Shown: positions 3,213-24,811 of the stretch, in pieces
How positions within the stretch are numbered: the stretch's first letter is position 1
Layout: each line of letters starts with the position of its first letter
Sequence record: NC_010583.1
DNA: 64,000 bases
From: Escherichia phage Eps7
Reading direction: 5' to 3' (one strand)
Notes under the pieces: generated by a model
Databases searched by the model: none
What the model was told of the DNA's origin: nothing
Seen by the model: the letters and a program-made list of their open reading frames with translations, nothing else
Position numbers and translations under genes: made by a program

Positions 3213-3287
3213 TGGTGCGGTCGGAGGGAATCGAACCCTCAACTTCTGGTTGGCAACCAAAAAATTATACCTTTTAACTACGAACGC
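3213..3287 (-). tRNA. tRNA-Gly (anticodon GCC; tentative)
   Basis: T-arm gaggg/aatcgaa/ccctc, acceptor gcggtcg/cgaacgc, anticodon arm tctgg-ttggcaa-ccaaa. Confidence 0.55.
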
Positions 3288-3295
3288 ATAATAAG

Positions 3296-3500
3296 TCAAT
3301 CTAGGCAGGACTTGAACCTGCTATCACTTGTGCGGATTTACGAGAACCATTCTTTCACTCGAATCGAACGAGCTTCTACCCTCGGCAAGCTGGTGTCCCC
3401 TCTCCACCACGCTAGAATGATAATTAATGCCTGCTCCTTTGAATCAAGAAGTCCACCCCGGACTTTGGGTCTTTGCAGTACATCACGCTGCTCTGATGTT
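3296..3500 (-). other. tRNA-like elements (T-arm hairpins without complete cloverleaf); possible tRNA pseudogenes or small ncRNA
   Basis: Two strong T-arm-like hairpins (gcagg-acttgaa-cctgc at 3306-3322; actcg-aatcgaa-cgagc at 3357-3373) but no matching acceptor stem found by eye. Confidence 0.3.
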
Positions 3501-3576
3501 TGGTACACCCACTAGGACTTGAACCTAGAACCCTCCGCTTAAGAGGCGGTAGCTCTAACCATTGAGCTATGGATGT
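3501..3576 (-). tRNA. tRNA (possibly Lys, anticodon CUU)
   Basis: T-arm ctagg/acttgaa/cctag perfect, D-arm gctc...gagc, acceptor acaccca/tggatgt, loop ttaagag. Confidence 0.5.
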
Positions 3577-4624: not shown

Positions 4625-4672
4625 ACAGAACTTTAAGGATTTAAGCAACTACATTTTTCAGAAATTTGATGC
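4625..4672 (-). promoter_or_regulatory. T5-type early promoter cassette
   Basis: RC: -35 GTTGCT, -10 TATAAT, conserved leader. Confidence 0.5.
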
Positions 4673-4928
4673 CTTTCTTTTTCTTCTTATACTTCCACGT
4701 TAATGGATTCTGTCGATTATGAACGCTTGAGATCTTTGTCTCGTCAAATTTCTTCAATACCATGTAATCACACGCCAACTGCTCTAGTGGAATGGTTTCT
4801 CCATCAAAAGCATAAACATAAGGCTGTTGACTAGCACGATAATGATAGACTTTGTTAACTCTACGTTTCAGCGACTTATCCGCGCAGTAAATAAAGAAGT
4901 TTTCAGGATGCATCAGCATCTCCTTCAA
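4641..4928 (-). CDS. hypothetical protein (95 aa)
   Basis: ORF; lysine-rich C-terminus overlaps the downstream promoter cassette. Confidence 0.4.
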   Translation of the reverse strand: MKEMLMHPENFFIYCADKSLKRRVNKVYHYRASQQPYVYAFDGETIPLEQLACDYMVLKKFDETKISSVHNRQNPLTWKYKKKKKGIKFLKNVVA

Positions 4929-5011
4929 ATTGGTGCAACCTGTACGTAACGATCGTACCTCTTCTCCTTTTCAGGGAGACGCTAATCCATCTCAGCTAAA
5001 GTCGCAAATAT

Positions 5012-5088
5012 TGGCAAACCTACTAGGACTCGAACCTAGACCGTACGGTTTTGGAGACCGACATGCTGTCCAGTAACACTCTAGGAAT
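5012..5088 (-). tRNA. tRNA-Trp (anticodon CCA; tentative)
   Basis: T-arm ctagg/actcgaa/cctag perfect, anticodon arm acggt-tttggag-accga; acceptor pairing imperfect. Confidence 0.5.
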
Positions 5089-5096
5089 GCAGAAAT

Positions 5097-5172
5097 TGGC
5101 GTCCTGTGCGGGGATCGAACCCGCAAATCCTACCTTGAAAGGGTAGTGACTTTACCAGTTTGTCTAACAGGA
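5097..5172 (-). tRNA. tRNA-Glu (anticodon UUC)
   Basis: T-arm gcggg/gatcgaa/cccgc, acceptor gtcctgt/acaggac perfect, anticodon arm ctacc-ttgaaag-ggtag perfect. Confidence 0.65.
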
Positions 5173-6185: not shown

Positions 6186-6262
6186 TGGTAGGGGTGGTGG
6201 GATTCGAACCCACAAAACCTGAATTTTAAGTCCAGTACCTATGCCAATTCGATTACACCCCC
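6186..6262 (-). tRNA. tRNA (anticodon reads UAA, Leu-like but type I; uncertain)
   Basis: T-arm gtggg/attcgaa/cccac perfect, acceptor aggggtg/caccccc, anticodon arm ctgaa-ttttaag-tccag. Confidence 0.5.
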
Positions 6263-6280
6263 ATGTAATCTTAGCGAATC

Positions 6281-6603
6281 TCTAAACCCTGGAAATATCG
6301 AGGGAATGGAGAGCCAACTTCAAAATTGATGCCCCAATTAAGTTCAACGAGTTCAGATTTATTAAGATCTAGGCCATTACCTTCAAAGATATAGCCGTAA
6401 ACCGCAGGGAACATAGCTGCTAGATCTTCCATATCGGAATGAGCATTGTGTTCTTCACGGAACTGCTCAACTCTTCAATAGAACTTTTCTAGGAGACTCA
6501 GGTACGATGAACGTTACCACATCAGTAGAATCATCGGTACGATACACCGTAGCTTGGAACAAGCCAACACCTAAAAGGTTTATTGCCGGAGTAGTAAAAA
6601 TAT
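6281..6603 (-). CDS. hypothetical protein (about 107 aa, apparent +1 frameshift near 6470)
   Basis: Two sub-threshold ORFs (MDIFTTPAINLLG... and ...EQFREEHNAHSDMEDLAAMFPAVYGYIFEGNGLDL...) in adjacent frames. Confidence 0.3.
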
Positions 6604-6608
6604 CCATC

Positions 6609-6794
6609 TTAGCCTCGCTCAATGTCTAGACAAATTGCATATTCAGGGTTGATACCAGTACCTTTACATGTAGGACATTCCCATTCTCTACAGAAAATAT
6701 CCCCAGGTTCTGCATCATCCTGCCTACCACTACCATGACAGTCCTTACACCGACATTCTTCTAATGCTTTCTTCATTTCATAGAATCTAGACAT
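6609..6794 (-). CDS. DnaJ-type zinc-finger mini-protein (61 aa)
   Basis: Two CxxCxGxG motifs (CKDCHGSG, CPTCKGTG) plus additional Cys pairs. Confidence 0.45.
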   Translation of the reverse strand: MSRFYEMKKALEECRCKDCHGSGRQDDAEPGDIFCREWECPTCKGTGINPEYAICLDIERG

Positions 6795-7045: not shown

Positions 7046-7336
7046 AACATTGCACTGATATACTTGTTTGATACGTGTCACTGACTTCTTAGTTGGGTTG
7101 ATAGAAGAACCCTGCCACCAACGTGATTCTGAGCTGAGAACAGCCCCAGGAACAGCTTGTTCTTTTGGCAGAACAATATCAAAACACTGTTCACCCATAT
7201 TATCTTTAATGTGCGACCAAATGTCTAGAGTAAATCGTTCTAGCTTATTACAAACTTGAACTTGACAAAGTTCCTGTTGTGGAGCAGCAAATACAGAAGT
7301 AGATACTAGAGTCAATGCAAGTACAATGCGTTTCAT
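7040..7336 (-). CDS. secreted/periplasmic protein with signal peptide (98 aa)
   Basis: MKRIVLALTLVSTSVFA signal peptide then Cys-containing mature part; the ORF-track MREESN prefix is read-through of the conserved leader. Confidence 0.5.
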   Translation of the reverse strand: MKRIVLALTLVSTSVFAAPQQELCQVQVCNKLERFTLDIWSHIKDNMGEQCFDIVLPKEQAVPGAVLSSESRWWQGSSINPTKKSVTRIKQVYQCNVQ

Positions 7337-7362
7337 ATTTGATTCCTCTCTCAAATTTATAA

Positions 7363-7400
7363 ATATATTATACAGAAATTTTCTATATAAGCAAGGTAAA
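7363..7400 (-). promoter_or_regulatory. T5-type early promoter cassette
   Basis: RC: -35 CTTGCT, 17-nt spacer, -10 TATAAT, leader ...TTTGAGAGAGGAATCAA then ATG. Confidence 0.55.
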
Positions 7401-7436
7401 AATTTATGTATATAGCCCTCTAAGCGAGGGCTATAA
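7398..7436 (-). terminator. intrinsic terminator
   Basis: Hairpin tatagccctc-taagc-gagggctata followed on the minus strand by a U-run. Confidence 0.5.
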
Positions 7437-7441
7437 CTACT

Positions 7442-8134
7442 TTATTTGTTAACGCGTACAAAGTATCCTTTATAGGCTCCCATAATAGAGTTACCTAAGA
7501 ATACTAGCCACATTGCTAGGATTGCATAAGATGCACCTGTAGATTGAGCAGTTACAAGCCAAATGTACACAGTACCAATGTTAATAGCAATCCAAATCAG
7601 CCATTGTTCAGCATATTGTTTGACCATAAGCCACATAGCAATCACACTACCTACCGCAGTAAATGCATCCAACATTGGGAATGGATCAGCCGTAGTAGCA
7701 AGGAAACTACCATAACCTAACGTGGCTACTGCTAAAATCCCTAGAGTCAGCAAAGCTTGAGCTTTTGTCAGAACTTTAGTTGGAACATCCGGCAGATTAC
7801 TTGGCTTATTTTTATGCCATAAGTACATTCCATAAAACTGCATAGGAACGTAGTATAGCAGGTTTAGTGCAGCGTTACCATAAAGATCTGCGTTTAAAGC
7901 TGTAATACCATATGTAAGAACACCCACTAAGCCCCAAATATAGTTGGAAACACGTCCTTTTGCAACCAGAATAACACAAACCACATTGGTTATTGCAGTA
8001 GCCCAATCTAGAGCTGTACCATTATAGTTTGCTAAACTAATAAAGGCGACTGCTATAAACAGCCACAGATATTCCAGAGGTTTCCAGTTTTTAAAGTCAT
8101 TTACGAGATAGTTAGTCATATTAAAACTCTCCAA
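7442..8134 (-). CDS. pnuC: nicotinamide riboside transporter PnuC-like membrane protein
   Basis: 230-aa polytopic membrane protein; GMYLWHK and VKQYAEQWLIWIAINI match PnuC signatures GWYAW and RKYVENWLLWVIINV. Confidence 0.65.
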   Translation of the reverse strand: MESFNMTNYLVNDFKNWKPLEYLWLFIAVAFISLANYNGTALDWATAITNVVCVILVAKGRVSNYIWGLVGVLTYGITALNADLYGNAALNLLYYVPMQFYGMYLWHKNKPSNLPDVPTKVLTKAQALLTLGILAVATLGYGSFLATTADPFPMLDAFTAVGSVIAMWLMVKQYAEQWLIWIAINIGTVYIWLVTAQSTGASYAILAMWLVFLGNSIMGAYKGYFVRVNK

Positions 8135-19537: not shown

Positions 19538-20062
19538 TTAAATATCACCAATTCTTGTAAGAATGAAAGCGTTTTATCTGCATTCTGTCCTGCCACATAG
19601 TCCATTCTAGTTGCCATTGAATTATAAGTAATATGATGATGCAGATGTACATCAGCAGATAATGGTGTGGCTGAAGTAATAGTAGAGATATACGCCATAT
19701 CTAGATGATTTTTTGACATACATTTCAAGAAGCAGAGTTGCTCCCCCTAATACTACAGTTACCTCTTCCTTGAGAAAATCAGGCAGACGGTATCCAATGT
19801 TGCTTATGCGTGTAGCTGATCTTATAGAGTTCGGTAGTGGTCTATTTGCATAAATAAATAGGTCAGAATCTCCTAGTATTCTTTTTTGCAGAGTCTCAGG
19901 GAATGCTAACCAAGTTCCTGCTCCTACAATAATATTGTCAGGTGCCAGAGAATCCAATGTAGCATAGAAGATATCTAGTTCTTCTTTGAAAGAACCCCAG
20001 GGGAGCTTACCATTGAGGCCGAACTCCCCATTCGGCCCAGTTGCATAGATTGCTGCTATCAT
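19534..20062 (-). CDS. frd: dihydrofolate reductase (frameshifted at T6 tract 19709-19714)
   Basis: N-terminal [22 protein letters not shown] and [10 protein letters not shown]; continues ...[12 protein letters not shown] in the next frame when the A6 run is read as A5. Confidence 0.6.
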
Positions 20063-21207
20063 TAGAACATATCCTCAAATTCGTTGCCAAGATCTTTCAG
20101 AGTATCAGCAGATGTTTCTGTTACTTGACCTACACGATACGCTGCGCCAATCTGAATCTCTTGCGGAGCAGGTTGTAAAGATGTAGTATCCAACCAGTTC
20201 ATAATCCACGGAATAGGGTTCTTAGTAATTACAGGTAAGTGGCTTGGCCATTCTACACCAATGTGCATAAATGCGTTACGTCCTACAAAGTAAAGGTATT
20301 CTTCAAGCAGTTCTGCGTTCAAACCAATCAGACTGCGGCCTTTAAAGATAAAGTGGCCCCATTCAATCTCAGTTTTCAGAGTTTTTAGGAGTTGTGTTGG
20401 TGCTTTAGCTAATGCTTCATCTACCAGATCTTTATCAAATTGCTGGAACATAATCTGGATGATAGCTTTAGACATTTGAGTATGTAGAGCTTCATCTTTA
20501 GCGATTAATTGCAGGTTCTTAGCAATACCTTGCAGAATATCGTTCTCTGCTAGAGCAAAGGTACATGCAAAGGATGCGTAGAACTGCATTGCTTCCAGAC
20601 CGTAGATTGCAAAGTAAGCATCTAACAGCTTAGCCTGAGTTTCACGTTTAACTTCAGGGAACTCAGTTTCTGGATAAGTATTATCACCACGATGATCACG
20701 TACTGCAAGGAAATACTGACCTAACAGATACAATTCATCAAACAGTTCAACAGAATCTGCGATACGTGCAAATGCTTCTTGGTTTTTAGTTACAGAATCA
20801 ATAAATTCTGCTGGATCAGTCAGAACGTTACGAATAATATTACTATACGCACGGCTGTGCAGATCTTCGAAGTAGCTCCACTGCTTGAGCATACCCTCCA
20901 ATTCAGGACGGCTTACAAGCGGCATAATAGCTGCTTCAGGAGCACGGCTAATGAAAGAATCTGTTTGGGTCTGCCATGCTAAGTTCAGGAGAGTAATTTC
21001 CTGAATATCACGCGGAAGGTTTGGCCATTGTTTCTTATCGGCTTCCAGACTGATTTCAGTTTCAGTCCAAAATTGAGAACGTTGCAGAAGTGCTAGACGC
21101 TCAAGTTCAGGATGTGCTACACGAACGTAATCTGCGATACCAAGAGAATCGCCCAGGAAAAGGTCAGCGTTAGTATGATCCCAATTCAGGTTTAGTAAAG
21201 TAGTCAT
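20062..21207 (-). CDS. nrdB: ribonucleotide reductase class Ia beta subunit
   Basis: Ferritin-like diiron motif region ...FACTFALAEND...AKDEALHTQ; 381 aa; adjacent to nrdA. Confidence 0.85.
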   Translation of the reverse strand: MTTLLNLNWDHTNADLFLGDSLGIADYVRVAHPELERLALLQRSQFWTETEISLEADKKQWPNLPRDIQEITLLNLAWQTQTDSFISRAPEAAIMPLVSRPELEGMLKQWSYFEDLHSRAYSNIIRNVLTDPAEFIDSVTKNQEAFARIADSVELFDELYLLGQYFLAVRDHRGDNTYPETEFPEVKRETQAKLLDAYFAIYGLEAMQFYASFACTFALAENDILQGIAKNLQLIAKDEALHTQMSKAIIQIMFQQFDKDLVDEALAKAPTQLLKTLKTEIEWGHFIFKGRSLIGLNAELLEEYLYFVGRNAFMHIGVEWPSHLPVITKNPIPWIMNWLDTTSLQPAPQEIQIGAAYRVGQVTETSADTLKDLGNEFEDMF

Positions 21208-21235
21208 TGATTTTCCTCTTTCTCACTATTTCAGG

Positions 21236-21282
21236 AATATTATAGCAAATCTGGTAGCGATTAGCAAGTAAAATTATAAACT
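21236..21282 (-). promoter_or_regulatory. T5-type early promoter cassette (upstream of nrdB)
   Basis: RC: -35 CTTGCT, -10 TATAAT. Confidence 0.45.
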
Positions 21283-21756
21283 ATCAAGCTCCAATAGTTT
21301 AGCATCGCGCCATTCTATAGCATCCTCTAATTCTTTAAATGTTTTAGTATGTTTTACACCTTTCCTAGCTATTTGGACTTGATAAGATCCACTTGCTTTT
21401 TGGTGTATATTTTTAATACCTAACTTATTGTCCTTATGTGCTCCAACGTTCTTTCCATTACTAAATCTGTTAGAGGCTAGTAAATTAATTGCTCTATTAT
21501 CATGACGTATTCTATTATCATGATCTACTTCTTTTGGGATGTACCCATGCGTAATATAGAATGCTAGGATATGTGCGTAGTATTTTGTACCTCTTACCTG
21601 CATTACTATGTATCCTGAGCATTTTTCCAAAGAGCCTGCCTCTTTGCCTGCAAACTTAGTATTAAATGATTTATCTTCTCTAGGTTTGTGGGTAAAGATT
21701 CCGGTTTCTGGATTATAGTCAAATAACTCAGCTATTTCTTTGTATTTTTCTTCCAT
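21274..21756 (-). CDS. HNH homing endonuclease
   Basis: HNH motif VDHDNRIRHDNRAINLL...N; free-standing gene inserted between nrdA and nrdB. Confidence 0.7.
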   Translation of the reverse strand: MEEKYKEIAELFDYNPETGIFTHKPREDKSFNTKFAGKEAGSLEKCSGYIVMQVRGTKYYAHILAFYITHGYIPKEVDHDNRIRHDNRAINLLASNRFSNGKNVGAHKDNKLGIKNIHQKASGSYQVQIARKGVKHTKTFKELEDAIEWRDAKLLELDSL

Positions 21757-21788
21757 AATCTAAAATTACAGCCATTATAGGCCTAATA

Positions 21789-21806
21789 AAGGGGCTTTCG
21801 CCCCTT
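21789..21806 (-). terminator. intrinsic terminator (GGGGCTTTCGCCCC hairpin), possibly bidirectional
   Basis: aggggctttcgcccct directly after nrdA stop; T-rich flanks on both sides. Confidence 0.5.
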
Positions 21807-21811
21807 ATTTA

Positions 21812-24204
21812 TTATAATTGACAACCACCAGATGCGCATCCAGCAGCAGCTTCCTCTCCTGCACCTCCACCATTTTCAGTGTTGAAGTTTGCATAATAAA
21901 AGGTTTTCCAACCGTACTTAACAGCAGTCATAAAGTCACGAACTACTACTGGGCCGGGAATGATTTCATTCTCGAACTTGGTGTAGTCATAGTACATATT
22001 CGTACTGATAGACTGGCTGAAGAATTTCTGCATGGTTGCTACCCATTTGATCCACTCGATACGATCTACATCATAAGCCAGTTTATAGCTCATTAATGTA
22101 TCCCAATCAGTTGCACCTGGAGCAATTGCAATTACTTTATTAACTGCACTACCCTTGATAGATACGATCTTACGGGGCGGTTCGATAGAGTTAGTAACAC
22201 CTAGCAGTACAGAGGAACTTTCACCTGGCATCTGAGCAGTCAGAACAGAGTTGCGCATACCATATTTCAGAATATCTGCACGCAGAGATTCCCAATCCAT
22301 TTCTAGACCTACAGTTACCAGTTCATCAACAGTTTTCTTGTACGTGTCGATTACCAGAGTTCCTTGCGAAGGCTTAGTACGATTAAACCAGTCACATGCA
22401 CCTTGTTCTTTAGCCAGACGTACAGAGGCTTTATGTAGGAAGTAGGACAGCTTTTCAGCTTCACGGTGAATCCAGTTACGTGCTTCAACACCTTCGTAAG
22501 CCAAACCTTCTGCTGCCATTGCACCTGCTGCGTTCATCAGACCAATACCAACGTTACGACGTTTCTTAGCCGTGTACTTCCATAGTTGGGAATGGGTAAT
22601 CCTGAATCTCGATGATTGTATCAACGAATTTCAGAAGGATGTAGCAAGTTTTCTCCCATTCAGCCAGAGATTCCATGCGGCCTAGTACAACACCACCTAA
22701 GTTACACAGAGATACTTCACCAATATCTTCTGGACGCATATCGTCTAACTGATCTTGGGTTTTATACAGTTCCGTAACGTGATGGAATGGACGGGTGGCT
22801 GAGTAATTCAACACAAAAGGGTTGGTCATACGAATCGGGTCAAGGAAGTTACCATGACGGTTAGATTCACCAATGTGATGAGCATACATACGCCCTGTTT
22901 CCATACGGATACGTAACCAAGTATCTAGGATTTCTTTTGCAGAGATTCTAGGAGCTGCTGGAATTGTTTTTCCTTCGTGGTCGATCTTTGTAAGAGAAGC
23001 CACACGTTTCTCCGCTGCCACGTAGATTTCTTCAAACTTAGCCTCATCTTCACCATAAAACGCTTCATGAACTTCTGGTGCGTAGAAGTAGGACATTAGC
23101 GTAATATCTTCGTTTTTCAGGTAACGTTTTAACAGAAGGTTGTTAAAGCTCAGAGAATAATCCATCTTATCGATTTTATTCTCGTCTGTAGCACGTTGCT
23201 GCTTAACCTGCATCAACTGAATGATTTCAGGATCGAAGTATGGATAAGACACAGTAGCAGAACCGCCACGGGTTTGCTGAGTGTTAGCTTTTACTGATCG
23301 GTCAATGTGTCGATAATATGGCAGTTTTCCGGAATGCGGGAATGCCCCATTTCGCACCGGATCAGCAATTGATCGGCTTTCAAGATGATACCCGATTCCC
23401 GCTCTGGCTGCGACCATTTTGAAGACGATGTGCTCGGCTGTGTCGATTGAATCCAGCGTGTCAGTGGAATCCACGAGACAGCAACTAGCAAATCCACGGT
23501 CACTAGAGCGCAGGCCAACCAGTGGCGGCGTAGGAACGTTGATTTTGTGGAGCGACATTGCATTGTAGAGGTCGATTGCATCTAGGATTGTCCAGTTAGG
23601 TTGAGATAACATCGCCATTGCCATACCCATGTAGGCAAACTGCGGGGTTTCATAAATTTCACCAGTTGCAATATTACGACGAGAATACTTGTCGAAGAAC
23701 TGTTTCAGTCCACCACTGGTGAATAAACGATCGCGATCATGATCAATAACTTGGTTCAGAGCGTCAAACTGATCATCGCTAATCCATGCACTCATGTCTT
23801 CCCAGCGCCAACACGAACCATATGATCGTGGAAGAAACGCAGAGAAGGGGTTCAAAGGAATCATATAGGCGTTTACGCATCTGCGCAAGACGTAATTCCT
23901 TTGCTACAGTATCATATGCTGGGTTGTCTTTGATAAGACCTTCAGCGGCTTTAATTAACACATCTTGGAGGGTATCGGAATCTACAACACCTTTTGGTAG
24001 ATTTTTCTGGGCAGACATAACGACGGCAGACCAACTTACGTCAGTTGCTTTACATGCCCATGCAGCCCAATCATTGAGTTTTTCAGGAGCAAAGTCCTGA
24101 ACAGTACCGTCACGTTTAATTACTTTTTCAATACTATGGCTCATTGGGGTTTCCTTTTTGTAGTTATCAGGATTTAGGAAATATTCTACTTTGTTTTGGG
24201 TCAT
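21812..24204 (-). CDS. nrdA: ribonucleotide reductase class Ia alpha subunit (three apparent frameshifts)
   Basis: ATP-cone N-terminus, catalytic core ...VIDHDRD..., ...RRNVGIGLMNAAG..., C-terminal CxxxGGC tail; fragments join at G4 tract 23847-23850 (restores FEPP), at 23799-23800 and near 22575-22581. Confidence 0.75.
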
Positions 24205-24511: not shown

Positions 24512-24811
24512 TTACACCTTCCCCATATCCTTAAAGATATCGTAGAATGCTTTAGACTCCGGTGAGCGAACGTTGTCGATCAGTTCGATCATAGAGAAAG
24601 GAGAGTTTTCGTACTTCTCATAGACTTCCATAAGAAGTGCTAGACCTGAATCACCCTTGATGTCTTTCTGAGCTATATCCCCACAGATAATTAAACGACA
24701 ATCTTGTCCTACACGAGTCAGGAGACAGATCATTGCTTCAACGGAGATATTCTGAGCTTCATCGACAATTACATAGGAGTTGTTGAATGTTGCCACGCTT
24801 TCTTGAACCAT
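24512..24811 (-). CDS. PhoH-like ATPase C-terminal-domain protein (short form)
   Basis: Walker B-like YVIVDEAQN and ...IICGDIAQKDIKG...SGL; Walker A absent; start may lie at 24845 if the T6 tract at 24823-24828 is an overcall. Confidence 0.45.
   Translation of the reverse strand: MVQESVATFNNSYVIVDEAQNISVEAMICLLTRVGQDCRLIICGDIAQKDIKGDSGLALLMEVYEKYENSPFSMIELIDNVRSPESKAFYDIFKDMGKV

What the first reader, a model, noticed from the sequence alone, without database searches (positions are those of the whole stretch)
21274..21756. Free-standing HNH homing endonuclease inserted between nrdB and nrdA
A 160-aa ORF with a canonical HNH motif (VDHDNRIRHDNRAINLL) sits between the two class I RNR subunit genes, bracketed by a promoter cassette and a GGGGCTTTCGCCCC terminator hairpin. 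Homing endonucleases commonly target RNR genes in phages; this looks like a mobile insertion whose presence may vary among relatives.
Basis: partly seen in the sequence, partly recalled or inferred. Interest (0 to 1): 0.4.

Follow-up and report, generated by a model that had tools for sequence, protein, structure and literature searches.

The report
Mobile HNH endonuclease between phage RNR genes
This is a real but ordinary selfish gene: a free-standing HNH homing endonuclease between the two ribonucleotide-reductase genes of a T5-like phage, already annotated in identical form in public phage genomes and present in only about a tenth of relatives.

Summary
The 160-aa ORF at 21274-21756 (minus strand) exists as described. 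It scores above the Pfam HNH_3 cut-off and matches PHROG 99 (HNH endonuclease). It keeps every conserved catalytic residue. Its predicted structure combines an I-HmuI-like HNH nuclease with a C-terminal AP2-type DNA-binding domain.

The window is a T5-like phage (Epseptimavirus). The same gene, 100% identical in DNA, is already annotated as "homing endonuclease" or "HNH endonuclease" in GenBank relatives.

nrdB matches 439 phage records at near full length, but this gene matches only 46. Empty sites have precise boundaries. In Yersinia phage phiR2-01 the gene plus about 100 nt of nrdA is ~98% identical to the window, inside a backbone that is only 82-88% identical. dN/dS is 0.03-0.16.

One correction is needed. 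The promoter lies downstream of the gene and drives nrdB, and the hairpin lies upstream of it. The gene therefore sits in a terminator-to-promoter gap with no good promoter or ribosome-binding site of its own.

The 106-bp nrdA-nrdB spacer is a hotspot, with two insertion slots and at least four endonuclease lineages. Cleavage activity and target site are untested. Verdict: correct, already known, low interest.

The parts
21274..21756 (-). Free-standing homing endonuclease gene, 160 aa. Residues ~1-58 form an N-terminal beta-rich region like the I-HmuI N-terminus. Residues 59-100 are the HNH_3 (beta-beta-alpha-metal) nuclease core with D78, H79, N87, N91 and N100. Residues ~113-157 form an AP2-like DNA-binding domain.
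21757..21811 (-). Cassette leader between the nrdA stop and the HEG start. It holds the hairpin GGGGCGAAAGCCCC (21791-21804), which replaces the ancestral nrdA terminator, and then 31 nt with a lone TATAAT (no -35 element) and no Shine-Dalgarno sequence.
   Evidence: Junction alignment. Terminator-like call at 21789-21806. RNA fold -13.7 kcal/mol. Other alleles carry different hairpin sequences that all keep a stem-loop and a T-run.
21208..21273 (-). nrdB promoter (TTGCTA-17-TATAAT, 21267..21239) and nrdB 5' UTR with Shine-Dalgarno sequence. This is ancestral sequence, not part of the mobile cassette. The HEG stop codon abuts it.
   Evidence: Promoter scan, 10 of 12 matches with TG. The sequence is identical in empty-site genomes and is annotated as early promoter T5P28 in T5.
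21812..21910 (-). Last ~100 nt of nrdA. This stretch travels with the HEG in phiR2-01, so it is a candidate co-conversion tract.
   Evidence: phiR2-01 has 2 differences per 100 nt at 21800-21899, against 24-26 per 100 nt from 21911 onwards.
20062..21207 (-). nrdB (class Ia RNR small subunit), intact, the downstream neighbour.
   Evidence: Pfam Ribonuc_red_sm E=1.7e-35. 99.5% aa identity to the relative's NrdB in a single frame.
21812..24204 (-). nrdA (class Ia RNR large subunit), the upstream neighbour. In this window three single-base frameshifts break it into three overlapping ORFs.
   Evidence: ORFs. Pfam ATP-cone, lgN and lgC domains are spread over the three ORFs. Frame changes near 23848, 23804 and 22578 relative to the intact 777-aa NrdA of phagemcphageface.

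Best explanation
The ORF is a free-standing homing endonuclease gene (HEG) of the HNH_3 + AP2 type, carried on a ~534-nt cassette (hairpin, short leader, ORF). In the nrdA-nrdB spacer of T5-like phages the cassette has replaced ~36 nt that held the ancestral nrdA terminator.

Proposed mechanism: during mixed infection with a relative whose spacer is empty, the protein binds a site in or next to the empty spacer through its N-terminal and AP2 DNA-binding modules. It then nicks or cuts with its H-N-N active site. Recombinational repair from the HEG-carrying genome copies the cassette, and a variable length of flanking nrdA/nrdB sequence, into the recipient. Carriers are immune because the insertion removed the spacer sequence.

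The gene has no good promoter or ribosome-binding site and sits just after a hairpin. Expression is therefore probably low and depends on read-through from nrdA, as shown for T4 mobE.

Shown here: gene family, fold, intact catalytic residues, purifying selection, site polymorphism, precise junctions, mosaic tract. Inferred: cleavage, target location, nick versus double-strand cut, read-through expression.
For: - Catalytic residues: H79 and N91 are invariant and D78, N87 and N100 nearly invariant among 67 homologs; all are present here.
- Selection: dN/dS is 0.03-0.16 across five allele pairs.
- Polymorphism: 46 near-full-length carriers against 439 for nrdB. Of 43 sampled records, 23 are empty, 3 are window-type and 17 carry another insert.
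- Distribution: the same insertion point occurs in both Epseptimavirus and Tequintavirus.
- Junctions: the empty-site sequence is nearly invariant across both genera, and the cassette replaces exactly its terminator portion.
- Incongruence: the phiR2-01 HEG is 98.3% identical while its flanks are 82-88%, with tract limits at 21222 and 21911. mar003J3 is 98.8% in the HEG but has 26-30 differences per 100 nt in the adjacent nrdB 5' end. S124 is 79% in the HEG but 88-94% in its flanks.
- Published context: HNH+AP2 is a recognised HEG family, HEGs cluster near RNR genes and mark recombination boundaries (PMC10448857). HEG presence or absence is the main difference among T5-like genomes (PMC10644984, PMC8594841). 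T4 mobE lies between nrdA and nrdB, has no promoter, and nicks nrdB of the recipient phage (PMC2790892).
Against: - There is no biochemical or genetic evidence for this protein or any close relative. No solved structure is a sequence relative.
- The target site is unknown.
- T5-like genomes are mosaic generally, so the tracts could come from ordinary recombination that merely includes the gene.
- The AP2 domain is seen only by fold. Pfam AP2 gave no hit even at E <= 10.
- No convincing promoter or Shine-Dalgarno sequence precedes the ORF, so expression is assumed.
- The database holds duplicate GenBank/RefSeq records and sets of near-identical isolates, so the frequencies are approximate.
Confidence: 0.85

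Rival explanations
1. The gene is a domesticated or inactive resident. It arrived by homing in the past but no longer moves. It would persist because deleting it would damage nrdA termination or nrdB expression, or because it has taken on another role such as DNA-binding regulation through the AP2 domain.
For: The cassette supplies the only hairpin downstream of nrdA, so precise loss would remove nrdA's terminator. A similar argument against deletion was made for T4 mobE (PMC2790892). There is no obvious promoter or RBS. Many carriers have 100% identical copies, which could reflect clonal descent and not active spread.
Against: All catalytic residues are retained. dN/dS of 0.03-0.16 covers the whole protein, including the nuclease core. 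The near-identical copy in the divergent phiR2-01 backbone indicates recent transfer. The gene is absent from about 90% of relatives, so it is not needed for phage functions.
Confidence: 0.1
2. The nuclease acts mainly as a weapon in competition or exclusion between phages. It would cut co-infecting relatives, or the host, to favour its own genome, with gene copying as a by-product and not the selected function.
For: Free-standing phage HEGs are known to cause marker exclusion, and HEG domains are recruited in phage-satellite conflicts (PMC10448857, PMC2330249). The spacer is contested by at least four lineages that were never seen together in one genome among those examined.
Against: Mechanistically this is the same as homing, and sequence alone cannot separate the two. 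The tight link to one insertion site and the co-transferred flank are what homing predicts.
Confidence: 0.05

Closest known systems
The same gene in public T5-like phage genomes (e.g. phagemcphageface QIN99162.1 'HNH endonuclease', SB6 QDB70774.1 'homing endonuclease', phiR2-01 g086, FFH_1 ORF95; labelled 'H-N-H endonuclease F-TfIVI' in mar003J3)
   Same: 100% nucleotide identity over all 483 nt in at least 12 listed records, at the same position 66 nt upstream of the nrdB ATG, with the same flanks.
   Different: Nothing in the gene itself. None of these copies has been characterised experimentally. The library search for 'F-TflVI' found no paper.
T4 MobE (free-standing HNH homing endonuclease between nrdA and nrdB; PMC2790892)
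   Same: Same niche and gene order (nrdA, HEG, nrdB, within a frd-td-nrd cluster). No own promoter, so expression depends on upstream transcription. A terminator hairpin is associated with HEG-carrying alleles. The nrdB promoter lies 3' of the HEG. Mobilisation co-converts flanking nrd sequence.
   Different: No detectable sequence homology (BLASTP E=0.92). MobE belongs to classical HNH PF01844, not HNH_3. MobE's hairpin is inside the ORF and the nrdB promoter is inside the mobE coding region, whereas here both are outside the ORF. MobE's target, a nick in nrdB, has been mapped; here the target is unknown.
I-HmuI (intron-encoded HNH nicking homing endonuclease of Bacillus phage SPO1; PDB 1U3E)
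   Different: 16-21% identity. I-HmuI is intron-encoded and ends in a helix-turn-helix domain, whereas this protein is free-standing and ends in an AP2-like domain.
HNH-AP2 homing endonucleases (Magnani et al. 2004 as cited in PMC10448857; 'IPA-HNH' HEGs of ICP1-like phages)
   Same: N-terminal HNH plus C-terminal AP2 architecture. Enriched in phages and near ribonucleotide reductase genes, and associated with recombination boundaries (PMC10448857).
   Different: The AP2 domain is recognised here only by fold, not by the Pfam AP2 profile. Direct homology to the ICP1 proteins was not tested.
The other HEGs in the same spacer: T5 AAX12027 type, falkor type and SH9 type
   Same: Same HNH_3+AP2-like family (31-44% aa identity), same 106-bp spacer, same orientation.
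   Different: They insert on the other side of the nrdB promoter, directly after the -10 TATAATAT. There they replace the nrdB 5' UTR, bring their own AAGGAG ribosome-binding site, and overlap or abut the nrdB start, so they are co-transcribed with nrdB. The window type sits upstream of the promoter and replaces the nrdA terminator.

Membership tests
HNH / His-Me finger endonuclease, Pfam HNH_3 (PF13392) | Profile match above the curated gathering score | tested here: met
   36.2 bits against a 24.8 cut-off, residues 59-100 covering profile positions 1-44 of 46.
HNH / His-Me finger endonuclease, Pfam HNH_3 (PF13392) | Catalytic His (general base) with the conserved Asp/Asn residues of the H-N-N motif | tested here: met
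   H79 and N91 are invariant, and D78, N87 and N100 are >=90% conserved in 67 homologs; all are present in the window protein. Assigning a role to each residue is inference.
HNH / His-Me finger endonuclease, Pfam HNH_3 (PF13392) | Beta-beta-alpha-metal fold | tested here: met
HNH / His-Me finger endonuclease, Pfam HNH_3 (PF13392) | Metal-dependent DNA cleavage | not testable with these tools
   Needs biochemistry.
HNH-AP2 homing endonucleases | C-terminal AP2-type DNA-binding domain after the HNH domain | tested here: inconclusive
Free-standing homing endonuclease gene (functional class) | Own ORF in an intergenic region, not inside an intron or intein | tested here: met
   The ORF lies between the nrdA stop and the nrdB promoter.
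Free-standing homing endonuclease gene (functional class) | Presence/absence polymorphism at a fixed site with precise boundaries among related genomes | tested here: met
   46 carriers against 439 nrdB records. 23 of 43 sampled records are empty. Junctions are identical in six carriers from two genera.
Free-standing homing endonuclease gene (functional class) | Evidence of horizontal movement with co-conversion of flanks | tested here: met
   phiR2-01 has a ~690-bp tract (21223-21910) with 13 differences, inside flanks with 13-26 differences per 100 nt. Identity is incongruent in mar003J3 and S124. General mosaicism cannot be fully excluded.
Free-standing homing endonuclease gene (functional class) | Site-specific cleavage of the HEG-less allele and immunity of the carrier allele | not testable with these tools
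   Only an inference is available: the insertion deletes ~36 nt of the otherwise invariant empty-site sequence.
Free-standing homing endonuclease gene (functional class) | Nuclease-dependent over-representation in progeny of mixed infections | not testable with these tools
   Needs phage crosses.
T4 MobE family | Sequence homology to MobE | tested here: not met
   BLASTP E = 0.92. MobE matches PF01844, not PF13392. It is an analogue by position, not a family member.

The most novel reading that the evidence does not exclude
The 106-bp nrdA-nrdB spacer of T5-like phages may be a natural arena where at least four diverged HNH-AP2 endonuclease lineages compete for two slots on either side of one promoter. 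Under this reading, the window type recognises the conserved GC-rich nrdA terminator (AP2 domains are reported to favour GC-rich DNA), destroys it on insertion, and brings a replacement hairpin that throttles its own read-through expression. The apparent lack of double occupancy would then reflect mutual exclusion through co-conversion across the ~45-bp promoter. This would give a compact, experimentally tractable system for studying competition between homing endonucleases and the co-evolution of a selfish gene with host transcription signals.
Probability: 0.3. Interest if true: 0.35.

Novelty: already known. Interest (0 to 1): 0.15.

Why it matters
The practical value is mainly for annotation and phylogenetics. 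The stretch from about 20.4 to 22.1 kb should be treated as HEG-associated mosaic DNA and kept out of marker-gene trees, as the BASEL authors already recommend for T5-like phages (PMC8594841). For phage engineering, the empty and occupied alleles define a naturally permissive insertion site next to a strong early promoter. The comparative picture (two slots, at least four lineages, a cassette-borne replacement terminator) is a tidy example of how selfish nucleases fit into a host operon without breaking it. It parallels T4 mobE, reached independently by an unrelated HNH subfamily. No new principle is involved.

Tried and rejected
- PDB sequence search with the protein found nothing at E <= 1, so fold comparison was needed.
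- Pfam at E <= 10 and NCBIfam at E <= 1 gave only HNH_3 and noise, with no AP2 or NUMOD hit.
- The word-indexed homolog search returned only 7 proteins. The exhaustive search was used instead (33,809 representatives at E <= 0.001).
- The literature search for 'F-TflVI' found no paper. The phiR2-01 paper does not mention the gene.
- A paralog search of the 64-kb window by tblastn found no second copy.
- I considered whether the lone TATAAT upstream of the ATG is the gene's own promoter. I rejected it as unsupported: it has no -35 element, it was not called by the scan, and it is not conserved in the FGS017 and S124 alleles.
- I considered whether the 3-nt indel in the NrdA C-terminal tail (EEAAAGC versus EEAAGC) marks HEG carriers. 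It does not, because Sw2 (empty) and falkor (other type) have the long form while FGS017 and S124 (carriers) have the short form.
- I considered that this could be the conserved T5 genome-nicking enzyme. I rejected that because about 90% of T5-like phages lack the gene.
- I considered that the nrdA frameshifts are linked to the HEG. I rejected that because similar frameshifts occur in ligB, a metallopeptidase gene and DHFR elsewhere in the window.

Full report
**1. Observation**

The 160-aa ORF is present at 21274-21756 on the minus strand, with an ATG start and the stated VDHDNRIRHDNRAINLL segment. Its neighbours are nrdB (20062-21207, minus strand) and the 3' end of nrdA (stop codon at 21812), both confirmed by Pfam. 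The hairpin GGGGCTTTCGCCCC (21791-21804) and a strong sigma-70-type promoter (TTGCTA-17-TATAAT with TG, 21267 to 21239, minus strand) are also real.

**2. What the window is**

The region is 97.9-98.3% identical to Salmonella and Escherichia T5-like phages of the family Demerecviridae, genus Epseptimavirus, such as SB6, phagemcphageface and saus132. In those records the same ORF is 100% identical in nucleotide sequence. It is already annotated as 'homing endonuclease' or 'HNH endonuclease', and one record labels it 'H-N-H endonuclease F-TfIVI'.

**3. What the protein is**

- **Profiles:** Pfam HNH_3 (PF13392) matches residues 59-100 at 36.2 bits, above the 24.8-bit cut-off. PHROG 99, 'HNH endonuclease', matches residues 3-157 at E = 1e-49.
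- **Family size:** an exhaustive HMMER search found 33,809 cluster representatives at E <= 0.001, but only one cluster above 50% identity.
- **Catalytic residues:** in a 67-sequence alignment H79 and N91 are invariant, and D78, N87, L92 and N100 are at least 90% conserved. The window protein has all of them.
- **Caveat on AP2:** no Pfam AP2 hit appears even at E <= 10, so the AP2 assignment rests on fold alone.
- **Known family:** N-terminal HNH plus C-terminal AP2 is a recognised homing-endonuclease architecture (PMC10448857, citing Magnani et al. 2004).

**4. Polymorphism**

At the DNA level nrdB matches 544 phage records, 439 of them at >=80% coverage. The endonuclease gene matches only 55, of which 46 are at >=80% coverage. 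The protein-level search gives the same 46 records above 60% identity; every other hit is below 60%.

I then used an empty-site sequence as the query and read the insertion size from the span of each match. Among 43 evenly sampled T5-like records:
- 23 are empty.
- 3 carry the window-type insert, which is +501 bp with the terminator portion unmatched.
- 17 carry another insert of about 500-520 bp.

**5. Anatomy of the insertion**

On the coding strand the empty spacer reads:

nrdA-TAA | TAAAAACAAGGAGATCTTCGGGTCTCCTTTTTCTTTGAAA | TTTTACTTGCTAATCGCTACCAGATTTGCTATAATATTCCTGAAATAGTGAGAAAGAGGAAAATCA | ATG-nrdB

This sequence is almost invariant in six empty genomes from two genera.

In the window and in six other carriers, a ~534-nt cassette replaces the ~36 nt that hold the terminator. 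The cassette consists of a new hairpin, a 31-nt leader and the ORF. The nrdB promoter and 5' UTR are left untouched.

Different alleles carry different hairpins:
- GGGGCGAAAGCCCC
- GGGGCTCTCGCCCC
- GGGGGCGAAAGCCCCC
- GGGGACGTATGTCCCC
- AGAGGGTTAATTATAACCCTCT

All fold stably, at -13.5 to -20.1 kcal/mol. This suggests that a stem-loop between nrdA and the endonuclease gene is selected for.

The ORF has no -35 element, no Shine-Dalgarno sequence, and only a lone TATAAT that is not conserved in every allele. By analogy with the promoterless T4 mobE (PMC2790892), I infer low-level expression by read-through from nrdA. This is not shown.

**6. A hotspot with two slots**

T5, falkor, KKP_3831, MET_P1-197_41 and SH9 carry three other endonuclease lineages. 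These are 31-44% identical to the window protein and to each other.

All three insert at one point directly after the -10 element of the nrdB promoter (TATAATAT|). There they replace the nrdB 5' UTR, bring their own AAGGAG ribosome-binding site, and abut or overlap the nrdB start. The window type, together with its 78%-identical S124 variant, is the only lineage seen in the terminator slot.

**7. Evidence for movement**

- **phiR2-01:** the gene is 98.3% identical to the window's while the flanks are 82-88% identical. The low-divergence tract runs from 21223 to 21910, with 13 differences in ~690 bp, against 13-26 differences per 100 nt outside it. The tract includes the last ~100 nt of nrdA.
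- **mar003J3:** the gene is 98.8% identical, but the adjacent 200 nt of nrdB are a divergent patch with 26-30 differences per 100 nt, inside an otherwise near-identical nrdB.
- **S124:** the pattern is reversed, with the gene at 79% and the flanks at 88-94%.
- **phagemcphageface and SB6:** neither shows a single substitution against the window between 20447 and 22141 (SB6 differs there only by the 298-bp duplication noted in section 11), although their more distant flanks differ.
- **Distribution:** carriers belong to both Epseptimavirus and Tequintavirus.
- **Selection:** dN/dS between alleles is 0.03-0.16, so the protein is maintained by selection and is not decaying.

These patterns match what is published for phage homing endonucleases at recombination boundaries (PMC10448857) and for T5-like genomes generally (PMC10644984, PMC8594841). 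They remain correlative, because T5-like phages recombine extensively anyway.

**8. Mechanism proposed**

The proposed mechanism is homing into the empty spacer. The endonuclease would bind through its bipartite DNA-binding modules and nick or cut in or near the empty spacer. The conserved GC-rich terminator that the cassette deletes is the obvious candidate target, and AP2 domains are reported to prefer GC-rich DNA (PMC10448857). Recombinational repair would then copy the cassette and a stretch of flanking sequence. Carriers would be immune because the site is gone.

By analogy with I-HmuI, MobE and the T5 F-Tfl enzymes, a strand-specific nick is as likely as a double-strand break. All of this is inference, and I could test none of it here.

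**9. Comparison with known systems**

The gene is literally the same as annotated genes in GenBank. Its closest functional analogue is T4 MobE, which shares the same nrdA-HEG-nrdB niche, the lack of a promoter, an associated terminator and a downstream nrdB promoter (PMC2790892). MobE is not a sequence relative, however (BLASTP E 0.92; Pfam PF01844 not PF13392). The resemblance is therefore convergent colonisation of the same niche. Its closest structural relative is I-HmuI, which differs in being intron-encoded and in ending with a helix-turn-helix domain.

**10. Verdict**

The finding is a correct identification of a known and already annotated type of selfish gene, so novelty is 'already known' and interest is low. 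The modestly new comparative details are the two slots, the four lineages, the cassette-borne replacement terminator and the phiR2-01 tract. They are a tidy illustration and not a discovery.

**11. Side observations**

- Relative to the co-linear phagemcphageface genome, the window has single-base frameshifts in nrdA (three), DHFR, ligB and a metallopeptidase gene. It also has a ~420-bp internal deletion in phoH. These are spread across the window and unrelated to the endonuclease. They could be sequencing errors or real lesions, and I could not tell which.
- SB6 has a 298-bp tandem duplication of the 5' part of the endonuclease gene.
- The S124 allele is chimeric: its N-terminal ~70 aa are divergent while the rest is nearly identical.
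- The nrdA 3' end has two deeply divergent haplotypes among otherwise similar genomes.

Noticed in passing
window 21812-24204 (nrdA); frame changes near 22578, 23803 and 23848: nrdA is broken into three overlapping ORFs (141, 440 and 270 aa) by three single-base indels relative to the intact 777-aa gene of close relatives. If real, the phage lacks a functional class Ia RNR large subunit; it may equally be sequencing or assembly error.
   Followed up: partly
window 19709 (DHFR), ~37672 (ligase subunit B), ~15163 (metallopeptidase), ~24787-24790 (phoH): Further single-base frameshifts in DHFR (in a T-run), ligB and a metallopeptidase gene, plus a ~420-bp internal deletion that removes PhoH residues ~20-158, all relative to phagemcphageface. 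The scatter across the window suggests a sequence-quality problem and not something specific to the nrd locus.
   Followed up: partly
L002 (Salmonella phage SB6, MK809530) 3228-3554; corresponds to an insertion at window ~21490: A 298-bp tandem duplication of the endonuclease gene's 5' part and leader creates an extra truncated 'homing endonuclease' ORF upstream of the full-length copy.
   Followed up: partly
L011 (Salmonella phage S124) 2501-2992: The S124 allele of the endonuclease is chimeric. Its N-terminal ~70 aa and its upstream hairpin are strongly divergent, while the HNH and AP2 half is nearly identical to the window's. This suggests swapping of the N-terminal DNA-binding module between endonuclease genes.
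   Followed up: partly
window ~21900-22100 (nrdA 3' end): Two deeply divergent haplotypes of this ~200-nt patch exist among genomes that are otherwise 92-99% identical (EscoHU1, EC122 and S124 are ~76-79% identical to the window here). They include amino-acid changes, and they do not track the presence of the endonuclease.
   Followed up: partly
L004 (T5) 4632-5156; L007 (falkor) 4643-5140; L017 (SH9) 851-1369: Three other HNH_3-family endonuclease lineages (31-44% identical) occupy a second slot in the same spacer. All are inserted directly after the -10 element of the nrdB promoter and are co-transcribed with nrdB. No genome examined here carries both slot types.
   Followed up: yes
L008 (Yersinia phage phiR2-01) 3040-5376: nrdA is annotated as two separate CDS (1353 and 936 nt) in phiR2-01, at a position different from the window's frameshifts.
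   Followed up: no
L003 (mar003J3) 1560-2072 and 6237-6725; L006 (S126) 7165-7653: Some relatives carry additional endonuclease genes between frd and nrdB and upstream of nrdA. The whole frd-nrdB-nrdA-phoH block is therefore densely colonised by homing endonucleases, although the window has only this one.
   Followed up: no
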